A stretch of DNA of 64,000 nt, taken from contig CALXWB010000004.1 in assembly GCA_944392225.1 (NCBI GenBank), positions 206-64,205 of the forward strand, in the 5' to 3' direction. Positions 19,120-62,427 of this stretch are shown piece by piece. Position numbers and translations under genes: made by a program. The notes under the pieces were generated by a model. It saw only the letters and a program-made list of their open reading frames with translations, ran no database searches and had not been told where the DNA came from. Within the stretch, counting starts at the first letter, position 1. Every line of letters begins with the position of its first letter. This DNA is from an uncultured Alphaproteobacteria bacterium (lineage in GTDB: Bacteria; Pseudomonadota; Alphaproteobacteria; RF32; CAG-239).

Positions 19120-19473
19120 ATGCAGTTTATAAAGAAAAACATATGCACAATCCTGAGCTTGGCACTGTTTATAGTGTTAGGTTCGGTTGACAACGCGTTT
19201 GCACAAGCCGATTTGGTTAGAACCGCACAAGACAAAACCGTTGCTGTGTTTAGAGCCGTTAAAAGTATCATCTTTATCGTTGGTGGTTTCGGCTTGGTTG
19301 TTTTGGCCTTTATGGCAATCTTTGGAAAACTTGACTGGAAAAAGTTTTCAATGTTGGCCGTTGGTTTGGCCATTTTGGCTGCCGCCGGTGCCATTGTTGA
19401 TTACGCAACAGGTTCAAGCGAAGGTGAAAGCTTCAATGATAGCTTTAGCAGTTCGGCTCCGGGTAGCTACTAA
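19120..19473 (+). CDS. virB2: VirB2/TrbC-family T4SS pilin, paralogue 1
   Basis: Signal peptide ending 'NAFAQA', then two hydrophobic helices 'IIFIVGGFGLVVLAFMAIFGKLDWKKFSMLAVGLAILAAAGAIVDY'. Classic VirB2 size and topology. First gene of the T4SS operon. Confidence 0.7.
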   Translation: MQFIKKNICTILSLALFIVLGSVDNAFAQADLVRTAQDKTVAVFRAVKSIIFIVGGFGLVVLAFMAIFGKLDWKKFSMLAVGLAILAAAGAIVDYATGSSEGESFNDSFSSSAPGSY

Positions 19474-19519
19474 GGCATAACATCTGAGTTTTATTGTAAT
19501 ATAAAAAAGGAGACTGATT

Positions 19520-19909
19520 ATGAAAAAAAACATCAAAAATTTTTCAGGCAGTCTCCTTTTTACTTTAATTAACAATAGAAATATATTTCCGATTTTAATA
19601 TTTCTTTTCTTTATGTTTTTCACGCAAGCAGCTTTTGCGGCAGCTGCAACAACAAGCACTTCAACAGGTTTGTTTTCAGAGCTCATAAGCCGTGGAGCAG
19701 AAATTTTTAATGGCATGCGAGACATTATATATGTTGTATCCGGATTTGGCATCATCGGTGTTTCCGTTGGTGGCTTTTTTGGAAACATGAACTGGAAATG
19801 GCTGGGTGCAATTGTCATTGCACTGATGGTCATTGGCTTAACGGGAAGCATACTGAACTTTGTTGTTGGAGGCGAAAGTCAAACCGGCATTACCAATACA
19901 TTAAAATGA
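19520..19909 (+). CDS. virB2: VirB2/TrbC-family T4SS pilin, paralogue 2
   Basis: Signal 'FFTQAAFAAA', then 'IIYVVSGFGIIGVSVGGFFGNMNWKWLGAIVIALMVIGLTGSILNFV'. Shares the GFG...FG..(N/D)WKW core with paralogues 1 and 3. AAGGAG RBS. Confidence 0.65.
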   Translation: MKKNIKNFSGSLLFTLINNRNIFPILIFLFFMFFTQAAFAAAATTSTSTGLFSELISRGAEIFNGMRDIIYVVSGFGIIGVSVGGFFGNMNWKWLGAIVIALMVIGLTGSILNFVVGGESQTGITNTLK

Positions 19910-19923
19910 TGGGGAGAAAACAG

Positions 19924-21093
19924 ATGAAATTCAATTCAAAATCATTTTGGTGTTCAGCCTTTATAATCTTGGCGGTATGTTTATTTGCGTTGGATGCATC
20001 AGCTGCAAGCAACAACATATTGGTTCAGGTAAGGAACCGGGCCGTAAGTCTTCTGATTGCACTCCGTCCTTTAATTTTCCTCATTGCAGGTTTTGGCTTG
20101 ATAGGTTTTGCTTGGGGAGCCATTTTTGGTAAAATAAACTGGAAATGGTTTGCCAACATAGCCATCGGTTTGTTTTTGGTAGCTAATGTCGGCTTGTTTA
20201 TTGACTATTTTGCTTCCAACAATGGCAAATATGAAGAGCTGGGTTATGGAAAATATTTGGATACAGGCTACAATGCCACTGAAGGGAGTTCTGATGATCC
20301 GAAATCGCAGGAAGATCCGGGAGAGGGAACAGCAGGAGAGTCTGAAAGCGGAGAAAATTCGGATTGTGTTCCCGGAACGGGTGTAAACTGCGGAGATAAC
20401 AATGGTTTGATAAATATGGACGTTTCTCCGATAGTGACTGATGAAGATGAAGAAAATATTATAGAAAGCAAGCAAGAAAAACAAGACAGAGAGGATTGTC
20501 AGATTTTGGGCGGAACCTGGAATGGTGCAAGTTGCGATTTTGGAAATGATGTGATTGATGAAGATGCCTTGAAAGACGCAGAAAAAGATTTAGACAAAGA
20601 CCAAAAAGCTTGGGATAAAGAACAGAAAGAACAACAAAAAGAAGAAGAAAAGGCACAAAAAGAGGCTGAAAAAGCTGAAAAAAAGAAAAGAGAAGAAGAA
20701 TATAAGCAGATGAAAGAAAAGGTTGATCAGCAGACAGATGCTTTGAAAGATCAAATCAAGGTTTTGGAAAACCAAGCAAAAGAAGCAGAAAAAGCCTGCA
20801 AAGAGCAGAATAAAGAATGTGAAAATAATGTGGATTTGAAGGTCAGACAAAGTGAAGTCAATTGTGCCAACAATTATGCCAAAACGGAAAATGGAAGTGA
20901 CTATAATAACTCCAGCTATAAAAATTGTATCAATGCGCTGAACTATATGCGAAATAATCTTTCCAACCAATGTTCTCGTCAAAATGACAGTTGTATGAAC
21001 GGTGTAAAAAGCACCCAGCAGCAAATACAAGATTTGGAAAGCCGAATTGAAGATTTGAACAATTCGCTGAAAGAGCTGAAAAATTCAATATAA
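19924..21093 (+). CDS. VirB2-like pilin domain fused to a ~290-aa acidic/Lys-rich, Cys-containing C-terminal extension
   Basis: The N-terminal 110 aa 'ALDASAAS..LIFLIAGFGLIGFAWGAIFGKINWKWFANIAIGLFLVANVGLFIDY' is paralogous to the two preceding pilins. It then has D/E/G-rich, coiled-coil 'KEQKEQQKEEEKAQKEAEKAEKKKREEE' and Cys-spaced segments. Start at ATG 19924 (GGAG upstream); the track start is 19798. Confidence 0.6.
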   Translation: MKFNSKSFWCSAFIILAVCLFALDASAASNNILVQVRNRAVSLLIALRPLIFLIAGFGLIGFAWGAIFGKINWKWFANIAIGLFLVANVGLFIDYFASNNGKYEELGYGKYLDTGYNATEGSSDDPKSQEDPGEGTAGESESGENSDCVPGTGVNCGDNNGLINMDVSPIVTDEDEENIIESKQEKQDREDCQILGGTWNGASCDFGNDVIDEDALKDAEKDLDKDQKAWDKEQKEQQKEEEKAQKEAEKAEKKKREEEYKQMKEKVDQQTDALKDQIKVLENQAKEAEKACKEQNKECENNVDLKVRQSEVNCANNYAKTENGSDYNNSSYKNCINALNYMRNNLSNQCSRQNDSCMNGVKSTQQQIQDLESRIEDLNNSLKELKNSI

Positions 21094-21110
21094 ATTAACT
21101 GATTTTTTAT

Positions 21111-21151
21111 AAAAAAAAGATACATTCAAAATAAGAATGTATCTTTTTTTT
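21111..21151 (+). terminator. Rho-independent terminator/attenuator after the pilin genes
   Basis: Hairpin AAGATACATTC (21117-21127) / loop AAAATAA / GAATGTATCTT (21135-21145), followed by a T-run to 21151. Confidence 0.7.
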
Positions 21152-21233
21152 GTTATAAGTGAATAAAAACAGGTTTTTATTGCAAAGAACATACAAAAAG
21201 ATATCATGATAAAAACAACAAAGGCATGTCAAA

Positions 21234-21524
21234 ATGAGGGAAATGATTCTTAAAGCAGTGGCAAACCCGCCCAAGATATTGTGGGGGCCGTTTTTGCCTG
21301 TTTTGTTGAATCTCGGGCTGCAATTTCCGTTTATGTTCATGGCAATTGGATTGTTTGACATGAACCCGATATTTTTCTTGCTCAGCATTTTGATAGTGCA
21401 CATCATAATAATAAGCTTGGGCTTAAAAGAACCACATTTGTCCACCATGTTGCAAGCATATGGACAAACATATAGAAGAACCACCAACCTGTATAAAGTA
21501 AAGGGGACGAAATTTGCACCCTGA
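21234..21524 (+). CDS. virB3: VirB3-like T4SS inner-membrane protein
   Basis: 96 aa with two TM helices. 'LKAVANPPKILWGPFLPVLLNLGLQF' resembles the VirB3 'L.KA.TRPA...GVP' N-terminus. It overlaps the virB4 start, the usual virB3-virB4 arrangement. Confidence 0.7.
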   Translation: MREMILKAVANPPKILWGPFLPVLLNLGLQFPFMFMAIGLFDMNPIFFLLSILIVHIIIISLGLKEPHLSTMLQAYGQTYRRTTNLYKVKGTKFAP

Positions 21525-23943
21525 TAGTTTTTTTAGTATATTTGTAGAAGGGCTTTCAAGCGTTGAAGTGCTTGTGGCCGTAATAGGTTTTGTTTCGGCG
21601 GCAGCCTTTGCCGGATTTTGGGCCACCAAATTCGGGCGCTTGGTTTTGCCTCAGCCAAATGAGTCTCAAGTTTCAGATTTTCTGCCGTTTAACAAAATTT
21701 TGTCAGACGGTATCACCATAAAATGCTATAACGGCTCTTTTGTCAGAATATTCAGAGTTGAAGGTGTTGATTTGGCCTTTGCCACGGAAGAAAAAGTAAG
21801 CTCTATGCTTGAGGCCAGAAAATCATGGGTAGACGGCATGTCAGACTTGCAGGTTATATGCCGTGTCATCACCTTAAGAGAGCGCATACCGTTGGAAGAA
21901 GACGAAGGCGATTTCGGCAACCAACTTTTGGAGCAAATTTCTCAGGTTTGGGCACAAAACATCAACCGTGTATTTTCAAATACGCATTATATTGTTCTTT
22001 CTGTTCCGGATAGGACGGATGCGCTCAAAGATTTGAACTATGCTTCGCAGGCTCTTTTAGCCACGTTAAACGATTATGGCGTAAAAACCATGTATGAAAC
22101 GCCGGACAGTCCGGCAACGGATAGCCCCTTATATGTTTATTCCAGGATTTGCAGCCCGATAAGCAAACCCCAACCGAAGATTCGCAACGCCGAAGGGGTG
22201 ATGCTCAACCAAATGCTGACGGCAGACCATATTCATTTTACGGGAGAAAACGGCATAATCAAGTTTTTCTCCGGGGATAAGGAAGTTTATGAGATTGTGA
22301 TGGGAATTCGCACCTCGGGAGACTATATGGACGAAGCCATGATAGCTTCCCTGCTGTCAATAGATTGCGAATTGACTTTGTTGCACAACATTAAGCCGAT
22401 TTTTAGGGCCAATGCCAGAGCTTTGTTGATGCAACAACAAAAAATGGCAGGCATCACAAGCTTTTCGCAAGAAGTTGTAGACCAATATAGTTATGCCTTG
22501 GCCGCAATTGAAGAAAGTGATGCCAATTATCAAGCCCTGACGGAATATTCCATGTCTATCATTATTCGCGGTGAGAGTATCGATGAAGTTGAGTTTGGAG
22601 AAAGCGAAGTCCAAAGAATATGCCGTTTGTTCAGTGTTACGCCGGTCAGAGAGGGTTGGGTATCTCAGGCCACGTTTTTCAATCAATTTCCAACATATGA
22701 CACCTATCCCAGAACATATCGCTATTTATCGCGTGTTGTGGCCACGGCGGTGTGCTTTGACAAACCTTCGGAAGGTTTCAGCAAGAGCGATTGGGGGCCG
22801 GGAGCCATCAGCATTTTCCGCACCACGTCAGGCTCGCCGTATCGTTTTCAATTCCACGTATCATCAGAAGAGTCAGCCGTGGCACACTGTTGTATTATTG
22901 GTCCGACCGGACAAGGTAAAACAACCTTGCTGACCTTTTTGGCCGGCCAAGCCATGCGACATCATGACTTGAAAGTGTTTTTCTTTGACAGACACCGTGG
23001 TGCCGAGATCTTCACCCGTTCCATCGGCGGCGCATATATCGGTTTTGACGGAGACGAGAAGAACGTATCCTTAAACCCGTTTGATTGCGAAGATATTCCA
23101 AACAACCGTGCCTTTTTGCGAAGATGGCTCAAAGCCATAACCATGGTTGATGATGCCTTGTCTGAAAAAGAGATTTCCCGCGCGGTCACCACAGCGTTTG
23201 ATTATCTGCGCCCGGAAGAAAGGGTGATGAAAAACCTATACAAGAGCTGTTTTTCCCCGACGGGAAACATGCGCCGAGAGCTTTTCAAATGGGTTAACCC
23301 GGATCAATACGGCAACATTTTCAACGCCGACACGGATAGTTTGGATTTGAAAAGCAAACGTTTTATGGCTTTTGACTTCACACACATATTTGAAGATGAA
23401 AATTTGGCTCCGGCCGTGATTAGCTATATCATGCACCGAATTATGTCAGAAACGGGCGATGCCGGTATTCCGGCGCTGATTATGATTGATGAGACCGCGC
23501 CGATGCTGAAGCACCCCATGTTTAGAGATTATTTCATTATCGGCTTGCAAGAAGGACGAAAAAAACGTCAAGCTTATTTGTGTGCCTTCCAACAACCCAA
23601 CATCATTGATAAATTGGGCATAGGCGAGGTTGTAAGAGGTCAGTGTCAGACGGTTATATTCTTTAGAAACCCGCAAGCACAATTGGAAGATTATGCAAAC
23701 TGGAATTTGACCCAAAGTGAGTTGGATTTTGTCTTTGGCAAAAGCTATCGCGATTTTCCGTATGCCATATTATTGTCGCGTCCGGCAACGGGAGAGTCGG
23801 TGATTTTGGATGTTGATTTAAGCGGTTTGGGACCATATTTGAAACTATATAATTCTGGCAGAAAGAATGTTTTGTTGGTTGAAAACCTAATCAAAGAATA
23901 TGGTGAAAACAACTTTGTTACAAAATATTTAAATATTGCCTAA
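21514..23943 (+). CDS. virB4: VirB4/TrbE/CagE-family T4SS ATPase
   Basis: 809 aa. Walker A 'IIGPTGQGKTTLL' and Walker B region 'ALIMIDETAPML', with the downstream 'RKKRQAYLCAFQQP' motif block typical of VirB4. Confidence 0.95.
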   Translation: MHPDSFFSIFVEGLSSVEVLVAVIGFVSAAAFAGFWATKFGRLVLPQPNESQVSDFLPFNKILSDGITIKCYNGSFVRIFRVEGVDLAFATEEKVSSMLEARKSWVDGMSDLQVICRVITLRERIPLEEDEGDFGNQLLEQISQVWAQNINRVFSNTHYIVLSVPDRTDALKDLNYASQALLATLNDYGVKTMYETPDSPATDSPLYVYSRICSPISKPQPKIRNAEGVMLNQMLTADHIHFTGENGIIKFFSGDKEVYEIVMGIRTSGDYMDEAMIASLLSIDCELTLLHNIKPIFRANARALLMQQQKMAGITSFSQEVVDQYSYALAAIEESDANYQALTEYSMSIIIRGESIDEVEFGESEVQRICRLFSVTPVREGWVSQATFFNQFPTYDTYPRTYRYLSRVVATAVCFDKPSEGFSKSDWGPGAISIFRTTSGSPYRFQFHVSSEESAVAHCCIIGPTGQGKTTLLTFLAGQAMRHHDLKVFFFDRHRGAEIFTRSIGGAYIGFDGDEKNVSLNPFDCEDIPNNRAFLRRWLKAITMVDDALSEKEISRAVTTAFDYLRPEERVMKNLYKSCFSPTGNMRRELFKWVNPDQYGNIFNADTDSLDLKSKRFMAFDFTHIFEDENLAPAVISYIMHRIMSETGDAGIPALIMIDETAPMLKHPMFRDYFIIGLQEGRKKRQAYLCAFQQPNIIDKLGIGEVVRGQCQTVIFFRNPQAQLEDYANWNLTQSELDFVFGKSYRDFPYAILLSRPATGESVILDVDLSGLGPYLKLYNSGRKNVLLVENLIKEYGENNFVTKYLNIA

Positions 23944-24024
23944 AAAATCAAATAACCCTTTATAAAACATATGTTTTTTGATATAATAAAAAGAATAAAC
24001 AACAACACAAGACGGAGGCAAAAA

Positions 24025-24969
24025 ATGGGAAATGTAAAAAAAATTATGGCAGTGCTGATAGTCGGCGCCTTAATCTCATCCGTTGCTCCGAGGGCAAGCT
24101 TTGCCTTTGGCATTCCGTCGATTGATGTTCAGAGCATGGTTCAAGCCGTTAAGCGAGCCATTACCGATGTCCAAAATTCGACCCAATTAGCTTGGGCAAC
24201 AAAATCTGTCAAAGGGGTGCAGAGTGCATTAGGTAAATTTAATGATGCCATGAACGGTTTTATTAAAAACAATATCACCAACAGGCTTGATACCATAAAA
24301 GGGTGGAAAGAAAAGTATGATGAGAAGGTCGAGGCAGCCAAAAACAACAAATGGTATAAAAAAGGAAAAGAGGCGCTGGACACGGCCAAAGAAGCCAAAG
24401 ATCTGTATGAGCGCGGTCAAAATCTGTTAGATGATGCCAATAGTTTGAAAGAACAGGCAGAAAGATATAAAAACGATGCACAAAAAGCCCTGAAAGATGC
24501 CGAGATTTTGCAGCAAAAATGGGATAATCTGCAGCAAAAAGCTACCGATTTGACAGAAACGGCAAAAAATTATGCCCAAAAGGGTCCCCAACTTGTTGAA
24601 GAAGGGCAAAACTTGCTGAAAGAGTCAGAAAAACTGATTGAAGAATCAGAAAGAATCAAAGCGGAGAATGTGAGCGGAACATATCAAAATGCGTCAGATA
24701 TGTATGACGAGGGAATGAGAAAAAAACGCGAAGCAGAATCTCTGATTGCACAAGGGCAACAATATATTGATGATGCCGGAAAATTGGAAAAAGAAGCCAA
24801 TGATTATTTGGAAGACGGCTTGGGTATTAAAAGCGAGATAGATAGTCTTATGAACCAAGCGGAGAGTTATGCCAAACGGGCAGATAGCCTCATAGATCAG
24901 GCAAATAACCTGATTGAAGAAGCCAACGAGCTGATGAAAGATGTAGGCAACCTGGGCTCAAAGAAATAA
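24025..24969 (+). CDS. VirB5/TrbJ-like secreted coiled-coil protein (paralogue a)
   Basis: Signal peptide ending 'ASFA'. The mature N-terminus 'FGIPSIDVQSMVQAVKRAITDVQNS' resembles the TrbJ/VirB5 'GIPV.D..N..Q.....' start. The remainder is predicted helical/coiled coil. It sits after virB4. Start at ATG 24025 behind GGAGG. Confidence 0.5.
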   Translation: MGNVKKIMAVLIVGALISSVAPRASFAFGIPSIDVQSMVQAVKRAITDVQNSTQLAWATKSVKGVQSALGKFNDAMNGFIKNNITNRLDTIKGWKEKYDEKVEAAKNNKWYKKGKEALDTAKEAKDLYERGQNLLDDANSLKEQAERYKNDAQKALKDAEILQQKWDNLQQKATDLTETAKNYAQKGPQLVEEGQNLLKESEKLIEESERIKAENVSGTYQNASDMYDEGMRKKREAESLIAQGQQYIDDAGKLEKEANDYLEDGLGIKSEIDSLMNQAESYAKRADSLIDQANNLIEEANELMKDVGNLGSKK

Positions 24970-24980
24970 GGAGACTAAAA

Positions 24981-26099: not shown

Positions 26100-26134
26100 G
26101 GCTCTAAGCTGAAAGGTCAAAAGGAGACAAGAGA

Positions 26135-28718: not shown

Positions 28719-28737
28719 AATTTGCGGGAGAAAGAAG

Positions 28738-33299: not shown

Positions 33300-33488
33300 A
33301 TGAAAAAATCACTCAAACTTATATGCATCTTATCAGTTCTTTTTCTGTCAGGGTGTTTTGGCTCATATTATGAGGCAGAACCGATTGGCGTCGGAAAAGG
33401 AATAAATGAATTAAAATTATCTCCATGCGCTTGCATGCACTTGGATTTGCCGAAAAATCTGCCGGATTGGTATATAGAAACGATCTAA
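33300..33488 (+). CDS. VirB7-like small outer-membrane lipoprotein
   Basis: 62 aa with lipobox 'FLSGC'. Small Cys/Pro-containing mature peptide with 'LPKNLP'. Located just upstream of the virB8-2/virB9 genes. Confidence 0.5.
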   Translation: MKKSLKLICILSVLFLSGCFGSYYEAEPIGVGKGINELKLSPCACMHLDLPKNLPDWYIETI

Positions 33489-46050: not shown

Positions 46051-46071
46051 TTCAAACTCCTCGTCGCAAAA

Positions 46072-47331: not shown

Positions 47332-47334
47332 TTT

Positions 47335-55778: not shown

Positions 55779-58700
55779 TTAAGAATCAGAACGATTGCGC
55801 TCTTCTTCTTCTCTTCGACGCTCTTCCTCCTCTCTTCGGCGTTCCTCTTCTTCTCTTCGACGCTCTTCCTCCTCTCTTCGGCGTTCCTCTTCTTCTCTTC
55901 GGCGTTCTTCCTCGCGCTGTCTTCGTTGTTCACGTTCGTCTCTGCGCTCTCTTTCTTTTTGCTCACGTTCTTGGCGTCGTTTTTCTTCTCGGCGTTGCCG
56001 TTTTTCTTGTTGTTTTCTTTCTTGTTCTTTGGCTTTGTTTGTAAAGTCGCGATCCTCAAAATCACGGTGTTCGCCTGCTGCAGCCAAGATAACATTTCTG
56101 CCGATATTGAGAAAACTAGCGGCAGATCTGAGAGATTTTCCGCCCACGTGCATGGTTTTGGTATAAGCGCGTCCGACTTTTGTTTTGGCCTTAAATCCGC
56201 GGTAGAGTGTTTTCATGCCCAATCCAACAACTCTGCCTGTAGTAGAAATGGGTTTAACGGTTGCACCATAAGCAAGGCCAAAAGCGGTATCAACGGTTTT
56301 AGCCGCCAAACCGACAGGAATTCCCACCGCAGTCATAAGCGGTCGTGTTAAAAATTTGGTGGATTGAAAAGCCGTATCAGCAAGATTAACAACATTTCCG
56401 CCGGCCTGCAAAACAGGATCAATAACCATACGAGCCGCATCATTAATCACCAATCCGGCATGCCCCACGGGACGAGCCACATATTTTCCGAACGCGCCGA
56501 TGGTTTTTGCTGTATCAAGAGCTGTAAGAATTGTTCTTTCGCTTAAATTATATGAGGTATCAACCAAGTCGTTCGTAACGGCGCTGACGGATTTAATCAA
56601 GGCAACGCCGGGGCGGACAACACGTCCGAGACCTCTGGAATCTCTGACATAATCCGAATTGGCCTCAAGAGTTTGTTCTGTGCGCTTGTTGGCCACAAGG
56701 GGACCGGATTCTTTCCAAGTTTCTCTAAAACCTGTAACCCCTCGTTTGAGATCTTTGCCCAAGTTGCGCAAATGAAAGGCAGAAATAATATTGGCAGCAT
56801 CTGTTTGAATATTTTGTTGTGCGCGTTTTTCGGCACGAGCCACGTTTTTAACATAATTTTGTAGGCCGCCTTGGAAGTGTTGTCGGCTACGTGTAAAATC
56901 TTGAGCGCTGGATGTAAAATCAGCCTTAAAAGCAGCGCCGGAATTTTTAACACCTTGAATAACGGAAGATTTTGCTGATTGCAGATAAGACTTAAGATTG
57001 GCTTTAGAGAAAGCCTTTTTAATATTTTCTGCTTTGGGCAGAGTCACGGCTTGTTTGAGCTGAGCCAGACTCTCGGCATATTTGGCATCATCTTGAGGCT
57101 GTGTGCTCGGAGTTTGCCCCGTAATCTCGTTTTTAACGTCGGCAAGCGTTCCGACAAATTGTTGTTTGCTTGAAACAAAAGCATCTTTAATATCAGAGAA
57201 AGGAACAGCGCCCGTGGCGGCAGCCTTATCGCCGGCTTTTTCAACACCGCTTGCCAAAGATTGAGCCGCTTTAGCCAAACTGACATTTATATTGGCTCCC
57301 AATTGGCCGAATTTTCCGCCGATAACATCTCTCATTCCGGCATGGTTAATCCTGTTATGTTGATCCAAAGAATCAGCCACGTTTTTAAGTTCATTTGCGC
57401 CTTTAACCCATTTTTGCGTTGCTCTTTGAACAAAGCGCCCGGTTCCGCCGGCAATTTTTCCGGCAGCAAAAGTTGCCGCGCCGCCGGCGACATTAATCCC
57501 GGCCTTGGCAACGGTTGTAGCAGCCTTGCCGGCTTGATAAGAGACAATATTGGCCGCAGTTTTAAAAGGCTTTGAAATTTTGTTAGATAGCCACATTGTG
57601 GCAGCGGTTGCCATATGGTGCATCGGGGATCCGGCATTTTGTGTCATGCTGCCGCCAAAGAACATATTTGGATATTTATTTGTGATATCTCCGATAAGTT
57701 TATAGGCATAAATATAGCAAAATAGAAGAATCAAGAATGATGGTCCGGTAAAGTCAAACAGACCGTCAATATATTCCACATTATCATTTTTAAAAGCCTC
57801 AAAAATGGCATCTTTGCCGCTGAGAGCCGTTCCGTTTTCATCAGTAATTTGCTGTTCGCTGACAAAGGCCTGAGAAATCAACCTAATGGCATAAGAAGAT
57901 GAAAGCGCCAGGAATAAGAAGGTTCCGGCAGCATTGACGGCAATCATCACCACGGATTTAAGTTTACTTTTGGTCAAATTGAAAGGCCACAGGCCGATAA
58001 CCACCGGCAAAGCAATAATGGCAAAGCCGATTTTGAACGGAATATCAATAAGATAATAACACACACAAAGCACCAGCATAAAGCCGATACACCAAATGGC
58101 AGCTCCGCAGAGCCAAATCCAAATATCGGGGATATGAATATCAATCAACGGTGCAGAAATATTAAAGCCGGCAATGACGGAATAGCAGGTCAAGCCATTG
58201 CCGATAATAAGGTTTGTGGCCACTTCGTTGCTGACGGCTTCAGAAAGGCGCAAAACCTTATCCATCACGCTTTTAGAGATAATTTCCGTTGGTCCCTGAT
58301 ATTGGTTTTCGGGTTGAGGCGGGGTGCTCACATCAATATTTTCGGTTTCCAACAAGAGGGCGGTTCCAAAGTCTGCCCCGGCAGCCAAAATCGGGTTAAT
58401 GGCCAAGCTGACCAAAGCGCCGATCCCGGCATTGATAAAACAAAAAGCAACGATGACTTTGCCGATAAAGACCAAAATTTCTTGCACGGAAGAAGCCGGC
58501 TCAACATTGGCAAAGGAAGAAACTTTTTTCATGGCCCAAAAAGCAAGCCATAAGAAAGTTCCGAGCAAAAGGAGCTTATTACCGGCTTCTTTGGAAACAT
58601 CATAGACTTTGCTGCAGGCCGTCATAAAAGATTTAAGCAAAACATTAACAATCTCGCAAGGGAAACAATCTCCCTGATACCTTTCTTGCAAAACGGTAAG

Positions 58701-58841
58701 ACTTGGGCATTCTTCGGAATAAGAGGCAGCCGAAGCAGAAGAAATGTCGGAGCCGAAAGAAAACAACATCAGCAAAGCAAGGAACAATAAGATATTGTGC
58801 CTTTTTTGAAGATTAAATATGTCAAACAAAGAGTTTATCAT
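55779..58841 (-). CDS. virB6: VirB6/TrbL-like polytopic protein with a long C-terminal extension ending in an E/R-repeat helix (1020 aa)
   Basis: Signal-like N-terminus. 'GDCFPCEIVNVL' + TM + 'KKVSSFANVEP' block is shared with the paralogues. Multiple TM helices up to aa ~400. Then a long soluble Ala/Gly/Lys-rich region. It ends '(EERRREEE)n'. Confidence 0.6.
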   Translation of the reverse strand: MINSLFDIFNLQKRHNILLFLALLMLFSFGSDISSASAASYSEECPSLTVLQERYQGDCFPCEIVNVLLKSFMTACSKVYDVSKEAGNKLLLLGTFLWLAFWAMKKVSSFANVEPASSVQEILVFIGKVIVAFCFINAGIGALVSLAINPILAAGADFGTALLLETENIDVSTPPQPENQYQGPTEIISKSVMDKVLRLSEAVSNEVATNLIIGNGLTCYSVIAGFNISAPLIDIHIPDIWIWLCGAAIWCIGFMLVLCVCYYLIDIPFKIGFAIIALPVVIGLWPFNLTKSKLKSVVMIAVNAAGTFLFLALSSSYAIRLISQAFVSEQQITDENGTALSGKDAIFEAFKNDNVEYIDGLFDFTGPSFLILLFCYIYAYKLIGDITNKYPNMFFGGSMTQNAGSPMHHMATAATMWLSNKISKPFKTAANIVSYQAGKAATTVAKAGINVAGGAATFAAGKIAGGTGRFVQRATQKWVKGANELKNVADSLDQHNRINHAGMRDVIGGKFGQLGANINVSLAKAAQSLASGVEKAGDKAAATGAVPFSDIKDAFVSSKQQFVGTLADVKNEITGQTPSTQPQDDAKYAESLAQLKQAVTLPKAENIKKAFSKANLKSYLQSAKSSVIQGVKNSGAAFKADFTSSAQDFTRSRQHFQGGLQNYVKNVARAEKRAQQNIQTDAANIISAFHLRNLGKDLKRGVTGFRETWKESGPLVANKRTEQTLEANSDYVRDSRGLGRVVRPGVALIKSVSAVTNDLVDTSYNLSERTILTALDTAKTIGAFGKYVARPVGHAGLVINDAARMVIDPVLQAGGNVVNLADTAFQSTKFLTRPLMTAVGIPVGLAAKTVDTAFGLAYGATVKPISTTGRVVGLGMKTLYRGFKAKTKVGRAYTKTMHVGGKSLRSAASFLNIGRNVILAAAGEHRDFEDRDFTNKAKEQERKQQEKRQRREEKRRQEREQKERERRDEREQRRQREEERRREEEERRREEEERRREEEERRREEEERRREEEERNRSDS
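55791..56040 (-). repeat. Charged E/R/K/Q tract with a 24-bp periodic core encoding (EERRREEE)x5
   Basis: CTCTTCGACGCTCTTCCTCCTCTCTTCGGCGTTCCTCTTCTT... repeats between about 55797 and 55915. The plus-strand 'SSSLRR' ORF 55795..56166 is its antisense shadow. Confidence 0.85.
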
Positions 58842-58844
58842 GGT

Positions 58845-60221
58845 TTAATCTTTCCCCTGCAGAGAATTAAGCTTATCACTAATTCTTTTATGTGCATCTT
58901 TGGCATCTTGATATTTTTTGTTCACGGCCATAGCGGCTTTGCCGATTTTTGTTTTTTTGGCCTTTTCCATGGCTTCCTGAACTTTTTTCATGCGTTGCAG
59001 TCCGTCAATAACTTTACTTCCGCCGGCGGTAAGCCAAGCAAGAACGGCCTTACCAAGCCCCATAACCAAGGCTTCCAATTTTTTCTGAAAATTAGCTTTG
59101 ACGGATTCGCCGATAATGGCAGAAACCATTTTTTGCGCTACGGAGAGCGTATTTTTGATAAGAAAAGCCAAAAGCAACAAGCCCATAACGGCGGGGTTAA
59201 GCTCTTTAAAGGCGGCTTCTTGTTCTTCGCCCTGCGGGTTAAATGTTTCTGGGTTGTCTTGCAAAATCTGCGTAACAGCCAGAAGCGCCATGGCAATAAG
59301 CAAAGCAATCACCATCATAAAGGCGGCAGAAGTAAATATGGAAACAACACCTTTGTTGGTCCAGTTTCTTGTTTGCTGAAAAGCATAGGCCATAATCAAG
59401 AGCGGCAAAATAACCACCATAATGGTAAATTTAAATATGGTATCCACCAGATAGAAGACAAAGCCGAGCTTGATTATGGTAAAGCAAACCAAAATGAGCA
59501 GACCGACAATGGTGGCCATAAAGCCTTCCATTTTCATAACGCGAAAAGCCAGATAATTTCCCAGTGTCAATCTTTCATTGACCGAGCAAATCATACATTC
59601 CATAAGGTTTCTCGGAGATTCTGGAAAGCCCGTCAAAGAGGCTGTGGCGATTCCGTCAGAGCGGCAAATGATGTTTTGTCCGCCGGTAATGGTTTCGCCA
59701 AACACGGTAATGGTGTTATTACCTTGGGCATCGGGGATGGAAGAAGCCTCCAAAATCTTGCTGCCGAACTCAAGAAAAGCATTATAAACAGGGAAAATGA
59801 CCATATTTAAGATCCACAACAATCCCTCGGTAGAAGAGGCCAGATAGCCGCAAATAAAGCATAGCAATAGCTTCTGCAGCACTTCGTTCCACATTTCCAA
59901 ATGTTCGCCGGAAGCATCTTTGAAAGAACTGACAAATTTCAGGAGTCTGAAAGCAAACCACACGGCAAAGGCAACCATCATAAAAGAAAGAGCTCCTTGC
60001 GTAATTTTGCTATACATGCCCATAGCCACTTTTCCCATGGTGTCATAAAGCAAAGAAAGAACTTCTTTTTGCCAACATTGCCGATGTTCTTCCGCCAAAG
60101 ATTTTTCGTCTTGATCTTCAGGCATAGCCCCTTCTTTAGAGCAGCCGGACAAGGTAAAAGCTACCGCAATCAAGAGCAGTGCCATTCCTAAAAATCTCAA
60201 TATTTTTACCTTGTTCAACAT
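58845..60221 (-). CDS. virB6: VirB6/TrbL-like polytopic protein (458 aa, minimal paralogue, lipobox-bearing N-terminus)
   Basis: 'FTLSGC' lipobox. 'RQCWQKEV...' + TM + 'LKFVSSFKDASGEHL' block as in the paralogues. About 6-7 TM helices. Short Lys-rich C-terminus. Confidence 0.6.
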   Translation of the reverse strand: MLNKVKILRFLGMALLLIAVAFTLSGCSKEGAMPEDQDEKSLAEEHRQCWQKEVLSLLYDTMGKVAMGMYSKITQGALSFMMVAFAVWFAFRLLKFVSSFKDASGEHLEMWNEVLQKLLLCFICGYLASSTEGLLWILNMVIFPVYNAFLEFGSKILEASSIPDAQGNNTITVFGETITGGQNIICRSDGIATASLTGFPESPRNLMECMICSVNERLTLGNYLAFRVMKMEGFMATIVGLLILVCFTIIKLGFVFYLVDTIFKFTIMVVILPLLIMAYAFQQTRNWTNKGVVSIFTSAAFMMVIALLIAMALLAVTQILQDNPETFNPQGEEQEAAFKELNPAVMGLLLLAFLIKNTLSVAQKMVSAIIGESVKANFQKKLEALVMGLGKAVLAWLTAGGSKVIDGLQRMKKVQEAMEKAKKTKIGKAAMAVNKKYQDAKDAHKRISDKLNSLQGKD

Positions 60222-60239
60222 ATTTATGCCTTATTTTCT

Positions 60240-62252
60240 TTAATCATTACTTTCAGAACTATTTCTGTTGTTCAATTCAGAATTAAGGTTCTGGCCTTGA
60301 GTCGTGTCGGTATGAGAGTTCCCGCCGGCACCGCCTTTATCGCCACAGGCACCGCCTTTATCGCCACCGGCACCGCCTTTATCGCCGCCGGCACCGCCTT
60401 TATCGCCGCCGGCACCGCCTTTATCGCCACCGGCACCGCCGCTACCGCTGCCGGCACCGCCTTTGTTTCCGGTTTTGCCGCCATATTTACCCAAGCCAAG
60501 CTTTTGTCCAATGGCGGCTCCGGCTTTTCCTGTCAGTTCGTTAGCTTTGTCTGCCACAGCCTTACGTGCAGGTTGGGTGGCTTTTTTGGCCAAGTCGCTG
60601 GCACCTTTGGCCGCCATACCGCCGATTTGAGAGCCGATACCGCTGATTCCGCCGCCGGACATTTTAGAAGCAAGTTGTGTTGCTTGTGAGGTAAATTTGA
60701 AACCGAAAATGCAGCAGAATAGTAAAATTAAAAATCCGCCGAAACCAATGTCAGTCACTTCTCTTAAAACTTCAACATTATCTTCAGCCATGGCATTAAT
60801 AATGGCGTTCAAACCACCGGCCGTGTCGGAACTGGTTGGTGCCGTTGATGTTGAAGATGTGGAGGTTTCGGTTGTCGTTGTTTCTGTTGTTGTGGTGGTA
60901 GAGGTGGTCTCTGTCTTCGTGCCGGAATCATCGGAAGAGGCAGCCGGAGCGGCGGCAGTGGCCGTATTTCCGCCTGTCAAAGCCTGTCCCACAAGTTGCA
61001 GGTTGATACTGACCACAATACCGATAAATATAAAGGTGAAAACAACGTTGAGAAACATTTCAATTCCCTTTTTAGAATAACCGGTAGTCAGTTTGAAAGG
61101 CCAACAAGCAATCAGGAAGGGCATCAGAGCGCCAACCAAGCCCAAGGTCACCACGGCATCAATCAAATAGAAAGCAAAAGCCAAAGAAAGCATAATTGCA
61201 AAAGCCCAGATGAACAGCCCTTGAAACACCAAACTAAAATCCCAAAAACCAAGAATATCCGTTGCGGCATGTCTGCCCACACACATCAAAGAAGAACCAA
61301 TGGCCTGTGCAACGGAAATTTCCATTTGCACGGAACGGATAAAACAGTCAAGTTTTACATACAAAGAAGTCGGCAAAGTGCTTGTATCATTGGTAATAGT
61401 AACACTTTGAACACACTGGTTCAGAAAGTCTGGAGAATTAAAAAGCATAGCATTGCCAAATTCCAACCCGGCACCCAAAACCGGGGTTATAAAATAATGG
61501 TATATTTGGTCGCGGTTCATCAAAAGCAGAAAGGCAATAACAACCTTAAAAGTCTGCACCAAAAGTTCATTAATAAATTTTGGGGCATCTTGTCTTGTAA
61601 AAGAGCTGACATGGGCCAAGACCTTAAAGGCAATGTAGATGGCAAAACCGACAGCCATCACGGTTGCAATGCTTTTGGCCAATTTATCAAAAGAGAGTTC
61701 GGTCATTTGCTGAGCAGCGGCGTATAAGACGGCAAACAAAGGGCAAAAAGTGCAACTTGAGGCATCGACAATGGCAATCGGTACGGGAGGACAATCTTTC
61801 ATGGTGCCTTTTGTAGCCACGGCGCCGCCCCAAATAGTTTTAACATATTCAATGGTCTCGCCCGTGGTTGGGTCGGTATATGTATAAACATCCTTTCCGG
61901 TATTTTTCAGGTTATCCATGGTGTTGAAGAGAACTTTGAAATTATAAGTAAATCTATTCCACGCTTTCCCCCAAAAGCCATCGGCATTTTCAATATCTTG
62001 CTGCGCATCATAAGTGGCATCATTATAAGCATCAGAAATGCCATAATTTTCACCGCTGTCTGACCCGCTGCCGGTGTCCAATCTTTCATCTTCGCTCTGT
62101 TGCTGTTGTTTCAACACATCATAAGGTGATAAAGAAGAGGAAGAAGAATCTCCGGGGGCAGAAGTTTGGGCAAAGCAGATTCCTCCGGCAAAGAGATATA
62201 ATCCGAGAGCTAAAATAAAGAAAAAAAACTTTTTTGTTTTACTCATCATCAT
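60240..62252 (-). CDS. virB6: VirB6/TrbL-like polytopic protein with a Thr-rich insert and Gly-rich repeat tail (670 aa)
   Basis: Signal 'GGICFAQT'. 'SSCTFCPLFAVL' + TM + 'AHVSSFTRQDAPKFINELL', nearly identical in pattern to the 1195-aa paralogue ('CMLCPLFQVI...SFVSSFSTKDAPTLIKTLL'). Also 'TETTSTTTTTETTTTETSTSSTSTAPTSS' and 'GIGSQIGGMAAKGASDLAKKA'. Tail is (GGAGGDK)x5. Confidence 0.7.
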   Translation of the reverse strand: MMMSKTKKFFFFILALGLYLFAGGICFAQTSAPGDSSSSSLSPYDVLKQQQQSEDERLDTGSGSDSGENYGISDAYNDATYDAQQDIENADGFWGKAWNRFTYNFKVLFNTMDNLKNTGKDVYTYTDPTTGETIEYVKTIWGGAVATKGTMKDCPPVPIAIVDASSCTFCPLFAVLYAAAQQMTELSFDKLAKSIATVMAVGFAIYIAFKVLAHVSSFTRQDAPKFINELLVQTFKVVIAFLLLMNRDQIYHYFITPVLGAGLEFGNAMLFNSPDFLNQCVQSVTITNDTSTLPTSLYVKLDCFIRSVQMEISVAQAIGSSLMCVGRHAATDILGFWDFSLVFQGLFIWAFAIMLSLAFAFYLIDAVVTLGLVGALMPFLIACWPFKLTTGYSKKGIEMFLNVVFTFIFIGIVVSINLQLVGQALTGGNTATAAAPAASSDDSGTKTETTSTTTTTETTTTETSTSSTSTAPTSSDTAGGLNAIINAMAEDNVEVLREVTDIGFGGFLILLFCCIFGFKFTSQATQLASKMSGGGISGIGSQIGGMAAKGASDLAKKATQPARKAVADKANELTGKAGAAIGQKLGLGKYGGKTGNKGGAGSGSGGAGGDKGGAGGDKGGAGGDKGGAGGDKGGACGDKGGAGGNSHTDTTQGQNLNSELNNRNSSESND
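60322..60440 (-). repeat. Five in-frame 21-bp tandem repeats encoding GGAGGDK
   Basis: GGCACCGCCTTTATCGCC(A/G)CC is repeated head-to-tail. Alternative-frame ORFs 60272..60511 and 60297..60689 are artefacts of it. Confidence 0.9.
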
Positions 62253-62427
62253 CTTTATCCTTATGAAAGGGGTTGCCCAAAACCTTAACCCCGATTAAAA
62301 GCATGACAATCACTAATAAAAATGAGAAAACCAGTGCTTTTTTCCCGACAAACAATTCAAAAATATCCAAATAGTATGCCAGCAAGATCAAGAGCAAAAT
62401 AAATATATTAATTAAGTAATTTTTCAT
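62239..62427 (-). CDS. Small two-TM membrane protein, first ORF of the virB6-paralogue operon
   Basis: 62 aa, with 'INIFILLLILLAYYL' and 'LVFSFLLVIVMLLIGV', and an acidic tail KDKDDDE. Overlaps the start of the next gene by 14 nt. No family recognised. Confidence 0.4.
   Translation of the reverse strand: MKNYLINIFILLLILLAYYLDIFELFVGKKALVFSFLLVIVMLLIGVKVLGNPFHKDKDDDE

What the first reader, a model, noticed from the sequence alone, without database searches (positions are those of the whole stretch)
19120..62427. VirB/Trb-type T4SS with extensive paralogue proliferation, split into two arms
Seen in sequence: the plus arm carries three VirB2-like genes, VirB3, VirB4 and four VirB5/TrbJ-like secreted proteins. 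It continues with two VirB8 genes flanking a VirB7-like lipoprotein, then VirB9, VirB10 and VirB11. Four tandem VirB6/TrbL-like genes lie on the opposite strand 7 kb downstream.

Established knowledge: tandem virB6 arrays together with duplicated virB8 (also virB4 and virB9) are the hallmark of the Rickettsiales vir-homologue (rvh) effector-translocating T4SS. Multiple virB2 copies occur in Anaplasmataceae. rvh systems lack VirB5, whereas this locus appears to have several.

No VirD4 coupling protein, relaxase, VirB1, integrase or oriT-like feature is visible in 64 kb. Conjugative versus effector function therefore cannot be decided from this window.

Inference: this is a host-interaction T4SS of an unusual mosaic type, in a host-associated, probably alphaproteobacterium-like organism.
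Basis: partly seen in the sequence, partly recalled or inferred. Interest (0 to 1): 0.65.

Follow-up and report, generated by a model that had tools for sequence, protein, structure and literature searches.

The report
Domesticated, paralogue-rich type IV secretion system
An uncultured gut alphaproteobacterium carries, fixed in its chromosome, a heavily rebuilt DNA-transfer-type secretion machine with no DNA-transfer genes beside it and a block of surface-protein genes that is swapped between strains, so it most likely serves cell contact rather than conjugation.

Summary
The gene inventory is largely real. The locus has three VirB2 paralogues, VirB3 and VirB4. It has two VirB8 genes flanking a VirB7 lipoprotein, then VirB9, VirB10 and VirB11, and four tandem VirB6 paralogues on the opposite strand. 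Of the "four VirB5-like" genes, only the first has indirect support as VirB5.

The whole 45-kb layout is conserved in 61 species-level gut Alphaproteobacteria MAGs from human, ruminant and chicken. It sits beside a type IVb pilus cluster. Its nearest outside relatives are ordinary single-copy conjugative VirB systems on alphaproteobacterial plasmids, which carry a MobA/MobL relaxase and VirD4. Neither gene is found in the window or in 1.4 Mb of related loci.

The VirB8 duplication arose in the stem of this lineage, so the likeness to rickettsial rvh is probably convergent.

Unreported features:
- one VirB6 paralogue fused to peptidoglycan hydrolase domains;
- a 1682-aa VirB10 packed with beta-flower repeats;
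- a VirB9 with a SPOR domain;
- a 4.25-kb allelic island covering the VirB5-slot genes, exchanged between otherwise about 99% identical strains.

Best reading: a domesticated, non-conjugative contact and surface organelle, functionally closest to Bartonella Trw. It is a new variant of a known kind.

The parts
19120..19473 (+). VirB2 paralogue a. About 117 aa from the ATG at 19120; the mechanical ORF starts at the GTG at 18949.
   Evidence: Pfam TrbC E 3.8e-10. Signal peptide plus two membrane helices. Hits Microvirga VirB2 at 3e-17.
19520..19909 (+). VirB2 paralogue b (129 aa)
   Evidence: Pfam TrbC E 1e-4, below the gathering score. blastp to paralogues a and c at 4e-9 and 9e-14. Hits Microvirga VirB2 at 8e-17.
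19906..21093 (+). VirB2 paralogue c. A pilin domain followed by a ~290-aa acidic, Cys-rich, coiled-coil extension. The likely start ATG at 19906 overlaps the stop of paralogue b.
   Evidence: Pfam TrbC E 8e-6 on the N-terminal part. In relatives the pilin domain lies inside proteins of up to 2058 aa.
21234..21524 (+). VirB3 (96 aa, two membrane helices)
   Evidence: Hits the annotated VirB3 of Microvirga at 1.3e-10. 59-89% identical in 60 related loci.
21514..23943 (+). VirB4 ATPase (809 aa), Walker A and B intact
   Evidence: TIGR00929 E 4e-114. TrwK in the PDB at 3e-44. Motifs checked.
23971..24969 (+). Probable VirB5: first ORF of the VirB5 slot (332 aa as an ORF, signal peptide, helical)
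   Evidence: No direct HMM hit. A profile of its N-terminal family aligns to the N-terminus of the Erythrobacter ORF that follows VirB4 and passes Pfam PF07996: hhalign probability 89%, E 2e-6. A shallower alignment with signal peptides removed gave only 11.5%. By my reading of the sequences printed, the IPxxD-to-[AT][IL]G spacing is the same.
24981..28718 (+). Four further secreted helical proteins (372, 240, 397 and 223 aa) in the VirB5 slot. VirB5 homology is unproven.
   Evidence: Signal peptides. No VirB5 HMM hit in 122 such proteins. Weak hhalign to plasmid VirB5, probability 1-33%. AF2 model of the 240-aa protein has pLDDT 54 and no fold match.
24000..28250 (.). Strain-variable allelic island covering the VirB5-slot genes
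   Evidence: Against same-species strain L075 this stretch is 71-91% nt identical, while 17000-24000 and 28250-36881 are >=97%. Within the island dS is 0.6-1.2 and dN/dS 0.12-0.19; flanking genes have dS 0.00-0.06.
28696..32385 (+). 1229-aa secreted coiled-coil protein. In distant relatives it is fused to the preceding 223-aa ORF into one ORF of ~1240-1410 aa.
   Evidence: Signal peptide. Fused ORFs in L037, L045 and others. No Pfam or PDB hit.
32397..33158 (+). VirB8 paralogue a
   Evidence: Pfam VirB8 E 1.5e-13. Forms its own clade, 100/100.
33300..33488 (+). VirB7 lipoprotein (62 aa)
   Evidence: Lipobox LSGC. Hits the VirB7-slot ORFs of Erythrobacter and Microvirga at 8e-13 and 6e-11.
33505..34239 (+). 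VirB8 paralogue b
   Evidence: Pfam VirB8 E 2.2e-22. Agrobacterium VirB8 in the PDB at 5e-7.
34257..35894 (+). VirB9 with a C-terminal SPOR (peptidoglycan-binding) domain
   Evidence: Pfam CagX E 3.7e-14 and SPOR at 24.8 bits against a cut-off of 21.
35891..39328 (+). 1145-aa membrane-anchored array of beta-flower repeats; paralogue of the N-terminal part of VirB10
   Evidence: Pfam PF21785 E 2.5e-61, 9 stretches. blastp to VirB10 at 3e-47.
39335..44383 (+). Giant VirB10 (1682 aa): ~1300 aa of beta-flower repeats, then the TrbI/VirB10 domain at residues 1366-1556
   Evidence: Pfam PF21785 E 5.5e-71 and TrbI E 1.4e-36. NCBIfam VirB10 and ComB10 score equally. 1512-1692 aa in relatives.
44393..45361 (+). 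VirB11 ATPase
   Evidence: TIGR02788 E 2e-42. Brucella VirB11 in the PDB at 5e-19. Walker A GATATGKT.
45421..47919 (-). Three conserved accessory genes of unknown function: a 209-aa single-pass membrane protein, a 419-aa lipoprotein and a 194-aa cytoplasmic protein
   Evidence: No family hits. Same order in L069, L070 and L071. 60-84% identical in L069 and L071, where VirB11 is 91-93%; 48-64% in the more distant L070, where VirB11 is 86%.
48012..50438 (-). 808-aa protein with no signal peptide and six C-terminal acidic repeats carrying DWDWEYEE
   Evidence: 108-nt tandem repeat at 48055-48719. The motif [DE]W[DEQ]WEYE[DE] is kept 4-7 times in distant homologues.
50583..51991 (-). 140-aa secreted protein and a double-HTH (XRE-type) regulator
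   Evidence: Pfam HTH_3 E 3e-27, two copies. The regulator is 78-91% identical in relatives. The 140-aa gene is absent from L070 and L071.
52126..55713 (-). VirB6 paralogue (1195 aa) with N-terminal M23 endopeptidase and VgrG3-like_C hydrolase domains, a polytopic region at residues 559-831, and a 360-aa tail
   Evidence: Pfam E 3e-29 and 2e-23. HxxxD and HxH motifs intact. blastp to the 670-aa VirB6 at 5e-36. Fusion variants in relatives.
55779..62252 (-). Three further VirB6 paralogues (1020, 458 and 670 aa)
   Evidence: Pfam TrbL at 29.4 and 33.3 bits against a cut-off of 25.9 for the 458- and 670-aa copies. The 1020-aa copy hits the 670-aa copy at 1e-22. 5-7 hydrophobic segments each.
62239..63801 (-). 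Conserved head of the minus arm: a 62-aa two-helix membrane protein, a 284-aa protein and a 150-aa lipoprotein
   Evidence: Same genes in the same order in L001-L004, L069 and L070. Translation.
5307..18830 (-). Adjacent type IVb pilus cluster, transcribed divergently from the T4SS. It holds a TcpQ/PilL-like lipoprotein, secretin, PilO, a PilP-domain protein, an assembly ATPase, a platform protein, two PilS/bundlin pilins and a PilT-like ATPase. One plus-strand gene, a sulfatase/LtaS-family enzyme at 6362-7843, is interleaved.
   Evidence: Pfam and NCBIfam. The PilL, PilN and PilO genes are adjacent to the T4SS in 25-37 of the related loci.

Best explanation
This is a chromosomal, lineage-fixed VirB-type (MPF-T) type IV secretion system of uncultured gut Alphaproteobacteria. 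It descends from ordinary conjugative plasmid systems of the VirB2-to-VirB11 plus VirD4 plus MobA/MobL kind. It has lost its linkage to the DNA-processing genes and has been rebuilt into a contact-dependent surface organelle.

Shown:
- the core machine (VirB3, 4, 7, 8, 9, 10, 11) is intact and conserved;
- VirB2 (x3), VirB8 (x2) and VirB6 (x4) were duplicated before the lineage radiated;
- a block of four to five secreted helical proteins in the VirB5 position is exchanged as an allelic cassette between near-identical strains.

Inferred:
- the three pilins, the VirB5-slot proteins and the ~1450-aa secreted protein build variant pilus or tip structures that bind a polymorphic target, as in Bartonella Trw;
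- the hydrolase domains on one VirB6 paralogue replace the missing VirB1 by opening the cell's own wall;
- the SPOR domain of VirB9 and the beta-flower arrays of VirB10 anchor an enlarged periplasmic scaffold to the wall;
- the neighbouring type IVb pilus supplies the first attachment.

Whether proteins are also translocated, without VirD4 as in Brucella or Bordetella Ptl, is open.
For: Lineage conservation:
- 61 species-level loci have VirB4 at 67-91% identity.
- The plus-arm order is the same throughout. The minus-arm order is the same in three relatives down to 32% identity of the hydrolase-VirB6.
- Contigs reach up to 531 kb. G+C matches the flanks. Housekeeping genes lie next to the pilus cluster.

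Origin:
- The best outside VirB4 matches are on plasmids of Microvirga (37.6%), Erythrobacter, Sphingosinicella and Paracaedimonas.
- The Microvirga and Erythrobacter systems carry annotated MobA/MobL and VirD4 genes. In all three the ORFs matching the window's VirB proteins occur once each. The Paracaedimonas plasmid is typed MOBQ.
- All core proteins match that one family.

Loss of conjugation genes:
- VirD4 and relaxase queries from those relatives hit nothing in the window plus 71 loci (1.42 Mb). The VirB4 and VirB11 control queries hit strongly.

Timing of duplication: the VirB8 tree.

Surface variability:
- Between species the VirB5-slot proteins are 25-50% identical or undetectable, where VirB4 is 81-91%.
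- Within a species there is a 4.25-kb island with dS 0.6-1.2 between flanks with dS 0.00-0.06.

Other:
- Intact ATPase and M23 motifs.
- Some peptidoglycan hydrolase module is always present on this VirB6 paralogue: M23 plus VgrG3C, M23 only, or VgrG3C only.
- Weak transcript signal in one gut metatranscriptome.
- Functional precedent: Bartonella Trw (PMC2883598).
Against: - No experiment or structure supports any step of the mechanism.
- VirB5 identity rests on one indirect profile match. That match fell to 11% probability with a shallower alignment stripped of signal peptides.
- VirD4 could be encoded elsewhere in the genome; whole MAGs could not be searched.
- The high dS in the island shows recombination or an old polymorphism. 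It does not by itself prove selection by a target or by immunity.
- The hydrolase domains could have another role.
- The target cell type is unknown.
Confidence: 0.55

Rival explanations
1. It is still a conjugation or DNA-transfer machine (ICE or chromosomal Hfr-like), with its coupling protein and relaxase encoded elsewhere and acting in trans.
For: Its nearest relatives are conjugative, with MobA/MobL and VirD4. VirB11 and all channel parts are intact. A type IVb pilus next to a transfer system is known from the R64 thin pilus (my knowledge, not tested here).
Against: No VirD4, relaxase or integrase in 64 kb or in 1.42 Mb of related loci. The position and layout are fixed in 61 species. There is no compositional island. 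The giant VirB10, the four VirB6 copies and the allelic VirB5-slot cassette have no counterpart in the conjugative relatives.
Confidence: 0.1
2. It is an interbacterial killing system, like the Xanthomonadales X-T4SS, that delivers wall-degrading toxins into neighbouring bacteria.
For: M23 endopeptidase and VgrG3-like hydrolase domains are encoded in the locus. It is a dense gut community. The surface parts are variable.
Against: The hydrolase domains are N-terminal parts of a polytopic VirB6 paralogue, not free effectors. VirD4, which X-T4SS effectors need (my knowledge), is absent. No consistent immunity partner exists: the 140-aa secreted neighbour is missing in L070 and L071, and L071 still has the VgrG3C module.
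Confidence: 0.1
3. It is a DNA uptake or release system of the ComB or GGI kind.
For: No coupling protein. The VirB10 domain scores equally with the ComB10 and VirB10 models, 112.6 against 113.3 bits. A type IV pilus lies next door.
Against: From my knowledge, ComB systems lack VirB11 and VirB5-like proteins; both are present here. Nothing in DNA uptake explains an allelic cassette of secreted proteins, four VirB6 copies or pilin fusions of up to 2058 aa.
Confidence: 0.07
4. It is an effector-translocating system aimed at eukaryotic cells (host epithelium or gut protists). It would be the functional equivalent of rvh or Cag, with the 808-aa di-tryptophan repeat protein and the VirB6 tails as substrates.
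For: The lineage is host-associated. It shares rvh-like features: tandem large VirB6 copies and the virB8-virB7-virB8 order. The giant repeat-bearing VirB10 recalls CagY (my knowledge). The conserved acidic WxW arrays resemble the eukaryotic delta-COP ligand class (PMC7145657).
Against: No coupling protein. No known effector domain in the locus. The motif likeness is only a resemblance. There is no evidence that these bacteria contact eukaryotic cells.
Confidence: 0.15

Closest known systems
Conjugative VirB/VirD4 (MPF-T) systems of alphaproteobacterial plasmids, e.g. Microvirga sp. VF16 pMVF16-3 and the Erythrobacter aureus YH-07 plasmid
   Same: They hold the best outside homologues of VirB2, 3, 4, 7, 8, 9, 10 and 11: VirB4 35-38% identical, VirB11 ~42%. 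The basic order is the same: B2-B3-B4-B5...B7-B8-B9-B10-B11.
   Different: The plasmid systems match each window VirB protein with a single ORF. They have a ~590-aa VirB10 without beta-flower repeats, and a MobA/MobL relaxase and VirD4 beside the operon. The window has duplications, giant fusions, an inverted VirB6 arm and no DNA-processing genes.
Bartonella Trw type IV secretion system
   Same: It derives from a conjugation system and lacks the coupling protein. Its VirB2 and VirB5 (with VirB6 and VirB7) genes are amplified, and those surface parts diversify far more than the core. It is interpreted as a maker of variant pili for adhesion (PMC2883598).
   Different: It is not a close relative: TrwK matches VirB4 only at 3e-44. 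Trw has no VirB8 duplication, giant VirB10, hydrolase-VirB6 fusion or linked type IVb pilus. Trw copies are recent tandem repeats, whereas the paralogues here are old (22-36% identical).
Rickettsiales vir homologue (rvh) system
   Same: Tandem array of large VirB6 paralogues. VirB8 duplicated, in the order virB8-virB7-virB8-virB9-virB10-virB11. Vertically inherited and chromosomal (PMC2653234).
   Different: rvh lacks VirB5, has a second VirB4 and VirB9, keeps VirD4 after VirB11 and is split into five islets. Here a probable VirB5 is present and no extra VirB4 or VirB9 and no VirD4 are seen. The VirB8 duplication postdates the split from plasmid relatives.
Helicobacter pylori Cag system (CagY)
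   Same: A VirB10 homologue enlarged to more than 1600 aa by a long repeat region ahead of the VirB10 domain. The comparison rests on my knowledge of CagY and was not tested here.
   Different: The repeats here are 17-aa beta-hairpin units of the beta-flower fold (Pfam PF21785; PMC10584680). They are only 60-73% alike at the DNA level, so they are not obvious recombination substrates. There is no sequence kinship to Cag beyond the shared VirB10 and VirB11 domains.

Membership tests
VirB-type (MPF-T) type IV secretion system | Homologues of VirB2, VirB3, VirB4, VirB6, VirB8, VirB9, VirB10 and VirB11 | tested here: met
   Pfam and NCBIfam hits, most below the NCBIfam equivalog cut-offs, so the system is divergent. 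VirB3 and VirB7 are shown through plasmid homologues. VirB4 scores higher with the VirB4 models than with the TrbE or TraC models.
VirB-type (MPF-T) type IV secretion system | VirB5 minor pilin | tested here: inconclusive
   No direct HMM or structure match. There is an indirect match of the first ORF's family to a PF07996-positive plasmid protein: probability 89%, but 11% with another alignment.
VirB-type (MPF-T) type IV secretion system | VirB1 lytic transglycosylase | tested here: not met
   No SLT-type domain in any ORF scanned. M23 and VgrG3-like_C hydrolase domains on a VirB6 paralogue may substitute.
Conjugative element (plasmid or ICE) | Relaxase and type IV coupling protein (VirD4) | tested here: not met
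   No Pfam hit in the window. tblastn with the relatives' VirD4 and MobA/MobL finds nothing in the window or 71 loci, and the controls are positive. The rest of the genome was not searchable.
Conjugative element (plasmid or ICE) | Integrase, att or tRNA border, patchy distribution | tested here: not met
   No tRNA and no integrase domain. Present in 61 species-level genomes with the same layout.
Rickettsiales vir homologue (rvh) | Tandem array of three or more large VirB6 genes | tested here: met
   Four paralogues of 458-1195 aa.
Rickettsiales vir homologue (rvh) | VirB8 duplicated around VirB7 | tested here: met
   The order virB8a-virB7-virB8b is seen and is the same as in rvh islet C. The tree suggests an independent duplication. 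No rvh sequences were available to include.
Rickettsiales vir homologue (rvh) | Duplicated VirB4 and VirB9; VirD4 following VirB11; absence of VirB5 | tested here: not met
   One VirB4 and one VirB9 in 64 kb. VirB11 is followed by a convergent gene. A probable VirB5 is present. Copies elsewhere in the genome cannot be excluded.
Bartonella Trw-like adhesion system (functional class) | Amplified, hypervariable VirB2 and VirB5 together with loss of the coupling protein | tested here: met
   Three VirB2 copies. Four to five secreted proteins in the VirB5 slot form a strain-variable island. No VirD4. Adhesion itself is not testable here.
Xanthomonadales-type bacteria-killing T4SS | Free effectors with an XVIPCD domain, VirD4, and paired immunity proteins | tested here: not met
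   The hydrolases are fused to VirB6. No VirD4. No consistent neighbour that could serve as an immunity gene. XVIPCD was not searched with a dedicated model.

The most novel reading that the evidence does not exclude
The type IV secretion system and its linked type IVb pilus together form the attachment and delivery apparatus of a dependent lifestyle, epibiotic or eukaryote-associated, that defines this reduced gut alphaproteobacterial lineage. On this reading the system arose independently of rvh by domestication of a plasmid conjugation system. The 808-aa protein, with its conserved arrays of acidic di-tryptophan motifs, would be a translocated effector that mimics eukaryotic delta-COP ligands.
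Probability: 0.12. Interest if true: 0.85.

Novelty: new variant of a known kind. Interest (0 to 1): 0.62.

Why it matters
This would be a third independent case, after rickettsial rvh and Bartonella Trw, of a conjugation machine turned into a fixed cell-contact organelle by duplicating its pilus and channel parts.

It occurs in a widespread, uncultured gut lineage whose biology is almost unknown.

It gives concrete parts to test:
- a VirB6 that carries its own wall hydrolases;
- a VirB10 built largely from the recently described beta-flower fold, whose function is unknown;
- a VirB9 with a SPOR domain;
- pilin-domain fusion proteins of up to 2058 aa;
- a sharply bounded allelic cassette that marks which proteins face the outside world.

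The conjugative plasmid relatives provide the "before" state for tracing how such rebuilding happens.

Tried and rejected
VirB5 tests that gave nothing
- Direct proof failed. Tried: Pfam and NCBIfam on the window proteins; Pfam on 122 slot proteins from 32 genomes; three profile searches against PDB sequences; a profile search of the 5.8-billion protein set, which returned only fragments.
- An AlphaFold model of the 240-aa protein had pLDDT 54 and no Foldseek match.
- Single-linkage clustering of the slot proteins merged everything through coiled-coil noise and was discarded. My first hhalign run was accidentally global and was redone.

Accessory genes
- A single-sequence AlphaFold model of the 419-aa lipoprotein was useless (pLDDT 38). 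Its secretin-like C-terminal tail found no support in blastp against the pilus secretin or in the PDB.
- I tested whether the 140-aa secreted protein is an immunity partner of the VgrG3-like domain. I rejected this because it is absent where the domain is present.

Repeats
- CagY-style recombining DNA repeats in VirB10 are rejected: the units are only 60-73% alike.

Other
- No Rfam family or tRNA explains why several assemblies break just beyond the 150-aa lipoprotein gene.
- Promoter and terminator scans were no better than shuffled sequence.
- The literature searches found no paper on a secretion system in this lineage.
- Assigning the lineage to GTDB order RF32 rests on my memory of CAG-495 and was not tested.

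Full report
WHAT IS THERE

The window has about 42% G+C, with no compositional break at the locus.

Plus arm, as shown by Pfam, NCBIfam and pairwise comparisons:
- Three VirB2 paralogues: 19120-19473, 19520-19909 and 19906-21093.
- VirB3 (21234-21524) and VirB4 (21514-23943).
- Five secreted helical proteins of 332, 372, 240, 397 and 223 aa (23971-28718).
- A 1229-aa secreted coiled-coil protein (28696-32385).
- VirB8a (32397-33158), a 62-aa VirB7 lipoprotein (33300-33488) and VirB8b (33505-34239).
- VirB9 with a C-terminal SPOR domain (34257-35894).
- An 1145-aa membrane-anchored beta-flower repeat protein (35891-39328).
- A 1682-aa VirB10 whose first ~1300 residues are beta-flower repeats (39335-44383).
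- VirB11 (44393-45361).

The minus arm converges directly on VirB11. Read in its own direction of transcription it holds:
- A 150-aa lipoprotein, a 284-aa protein and a 62-aa two-helix membrane protein.
- Four VirB6 paralogues of 670, 458, 1020 and 1195 aa.
- A double-HTH regulator and a 140-aa secreted protein.
- An 808-aa acidic-repeat protein.
- A 194-aa protein, a 419-aa lipoprotein and a 209-aa single-pass membrane protein.

VirB4 has intact Walker A and B motifs and VirB11 an intact Walker A.

The paralogue sets are real. The three VirB2 copies hit each other at 6e-16 to 4e-9. The two VirB8 copies hit each other at 2e-37. All four VirB6 proteins hit one another, and each has five to seven hydrophobic segments. 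VirB3 and VirB7 have no family-library hits, but they match the corresponding genes of plasmid systems.

The weak point is VirB5. No protein in that slot matches VirB5 (PF07996) in Pfam or passes any TrbJ model. That holds for the five window proteins and for 117 counterparts from 31 relatives. Three profile searches against PDB sequences found no VirB5, TraC or TrwJ. A model of the 240-aa protein was of low confidence and matched nothing.

Indirect support exists only for the first ORF. In the Erythrobacter plasmid system, the gene after VirB4 passes PF07996 at 30.3 bits. A profile of the N-termini of the first-slot family, which includes the window's 332-aa protein, aligns to its N-terminus with 89% probability and E 2e-6. 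By my reading of the printed sequences, the spacing from IPxxD to [AT][IL]G is identical. A shallower alignment gave only 11%. I therefore call this ORF a probable VirB5 and the other four unproven.

WHERE IT COMES FROM AND HOW IT IS DISTRIBUTED

VirB4 has relatives at 67-91% identity in 61 species-representative genomes. All are uncultured gut Alphaproteobacteria or Proteobacteria MAGs, from human (Hadza, Nepal, Brazil), deer, sheep and rumen, on contigs of up to 531 kb. The window's own sequence occurs in chicken gut metagenomes.

The plus-arm order is the same in all of them. The minus-arm order is the same in three relatives, down to 32% identity of the hydrolase-VirB6.

A type IVb pilus cluster lies upstream and is transcribed divergently. 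It holds a TcpQ/PilL-like lipoprotein, secretin, PilO, a PilP-domain protein, an ATPase, a platform protein, two PilS/bundlin pilins and a PilT-like ATPase. Its nearest genes are adjacent to the T4SS in 25-37 of the loci whose flank reaches that far. Beyond it lie ordinary chromosomal genes.

Outside the lineage, the best VirB4 matches are on plasmids of Microvirga (37.6%), Erythrobacter, Sphingosinicella and the amoeba symbiont Paracaedimonas. The Microvirga and Erythrobacter systems are compact, with one ORF matching each window VirB protein and annotated MobA/MobL and VirD4 genes beside the operon. The Paracaedimonas plasmid is typed MOBQ. Every core protein of the window matches that family. 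The system therefore has one origin and is not a mosaic.

VirD4 and relaxase queries from these relatives find nothing in the window or in 71 related loci (1.42 Mb). The VirB4 and VirB11 control queries hit strongly.

RELATION TO rvh

Rickettsial islet C reads virB9a, virB8a, virB7, virB8b, virB9b, virB10, virB11, virD4 (PMC2653234). So the virB8-virB7-virB8 order is shared, as are the tandem large VirB6 genes.

Against kinship:
- In a neighbour-joining tree, VirB8a and VirB8b each form a clade (100/100). Together they exclude the plasmid VirB8s (98/100). This places the duplication in the stem of the gut lineage, after it left its conjugative relatives.
- VirB8b matches Agrobacterium and Bartonella VirB8 structures, and no Rickettsia VirB8 chain was among the ten PDB matches at E<=0.01 (that one is deposited is my recollection).
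- There is no second VirB4 or VirB9, and no VirD4 after VirB11.

I conclude the likeness is convergent.

NEW OBSERVATIONS

1. Hydrolase-VirB6 fusion. The 1195-aa VirB6 paralogue carries an M23 endopeptidase domain, with HxxxD and HxH intact, and a VgrG3-like_C hydrolase domain ahead of its membrane region. Full-length homologues appeared only among the unnamed metagenome and MAG proteins at the top of the search. All lower hits share just the M23 domain. The homologues carry M23 plus VgrG3C, VgrG3C alone or M23 alone, and three whose context was checked lie in the same T4SS arm. With no VirB1 present, a built-in wall-opening function is the simplest reading.

2. Enlarged VirB10. VirB10 and the 1145-aa protein before it consist largely of 17-aa hairpin units of the beta-flower fold. 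This fold was described only in 2023 and has no known function (PMC10584680). The Microvirga VirB10 lacks them. Together with the SPOR domain on VirB9, this suggests an enlarged, wall-anchored periplasmic scaffold.

3. Pilin-domain fusions. The third VirB2 paralogue is a pilin domain plus a ~290-aa extension. In relatives, the pilin domain sits inside secreted proteins of up to 2058 aa.

4. Allelic island. In strain L075 of the same species, VirB4, VirB8 and VirB9 are 99.6-100% identical and VirB3 is 100% identical to the window. The stretch 24000-28250 is only 71-91% identical at the DNA level. It covers the first four slot proteins and the start of the fifth. The proteins there are 76-82% identical. 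Within the island dS is 0.6-1.2 and dN/dS 0.12-0.19. Flanking genes have dS 0.00-0.06. This is an old allele exchanged by recombination, the pattern expected for surface parts under diversifying or frequency-dependent selection. It is not recent point-mutation adaptation.

5. Conserved di-tryptophan motif. The 808-aa protein carries 4-7 copies of [DE]W[DEQ]WEYE[DE] in every relative examined, while the spacers vary.

MECHANISM AND RIVALS

The best-supported reading is a domesticated, non-conjugative contact organelle. Variant pilins, a probable VirB5 and other exposed proteins would mediate binding to a polymorphic target. The type IVb pilus would assist. Protein translocation without a coupling protein is possible.

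The closest functional precedent is Bartonella Trw. It lost TrwB, amplified trwL and trwJ-I-H, and mediates host-specific adhesion (PMC2883598).

Rivals:
- Conjugation with trans-acting VirD4 and relaxase is unlikely, given fixation in the lineage and the absence of those genes nearby.
- Bacterial killing is unlikely, because the hydrolases are part of a membrane protein and no immunity partner co-varies with them.
- DNA uptake does not explain the cassette or the fusions.
- Effector delivery to eukaryotic cells is possible. The di-tryptophan repeats resemble delta-COP ligands (PMC7145657), but this is only a resemblance.

A gut metatranscriptome holds short contigs over several genes of the plus arm. 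This is weak evidence of expression.

VERDICT

The VirB5 count is not established. The rvh analogy is convergent rather than ancestral. The system is a new variant of a known kind and is of real interest to secretion-system specialists.

Noticed in passing
window 5307-18830 (minus strand, with one plus-strand gene at 6362-7843): A type IVb pilus cluster of the R64/TCP/BFP kind lies divergently next to the T4SS. It has a TcpQ/PilL-like lipoprotein, secretin, PilO, a PilP-domain protein, an assembly ATPase, a platform protein, two PilS/bundlin pilins and a PilT-like ATPase. Its nearest genes stay next to the T4SS in relatives. No prepilin peptidase was seen.
   Followed up: partly
window 6362-7843 (+): A sulfatase/LtaS-family membrane enzyme sits between the pilin genes and the PilT-like ATPase. 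It could modify the pilin with a phospho-form (my speculation) or act on lipids.
   Followed up: no
window 1182-4088 (-): A Ser/Thr protein kinase, a PP2C phosphatase and a von Willebrand A protein form a three-gene module at the left edge.
   Followed up: no
window 48055-48719: A 108-nt tandem repeat (6.2 copies, 90% matches) encodes the acidic DWDWEYEE repeats of the 808-aa protein. Homologues have 4-7 copies with different spacers, so copy number probably varies.
   Followed up: partly
window 60325-60464 and 55797-55913: Short in-frame tandem repeats of 21 nt lie in the C-terminal tails of two VirB6 paralogues, encoding GDKGGAG-like and charged units. The 670-aa paralogue is 655-665 aa in same-species contigs L001-L004.
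   Followed up: no
window ~63800-64000; L001-L004, L069, L070 ends: Contigs from several assemblies and at least three species all end 260-400 nt beyond the 150-aa lipoprotein gene. This suggests a repeat or hard-to-assemble element there. No rRNA, tRNA or Rfam family was found in what is held.
   Followed up: partly
window 28047-32385; L037, L045 and others: The 223-aa and 1229-aa ORFs overlap by 23 nt here and in close relatives. In more distant relatives they form one ORF of ~1240-1410 aa. The 1229-aa ORF has its own signal peptide, so this looks like a gene fission rather than an error.
   Followed up: partly
L073 (Candidatus Paracaedimonas acanthamoebae plasmids CP008937, CP008938, CP008940): Three plasmids of an amoeba endosymbiont carry a related VirB4 (29-31% identical) in a compact T4SS annotated entirely as hypothetical proteins.
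   Followed up: partly
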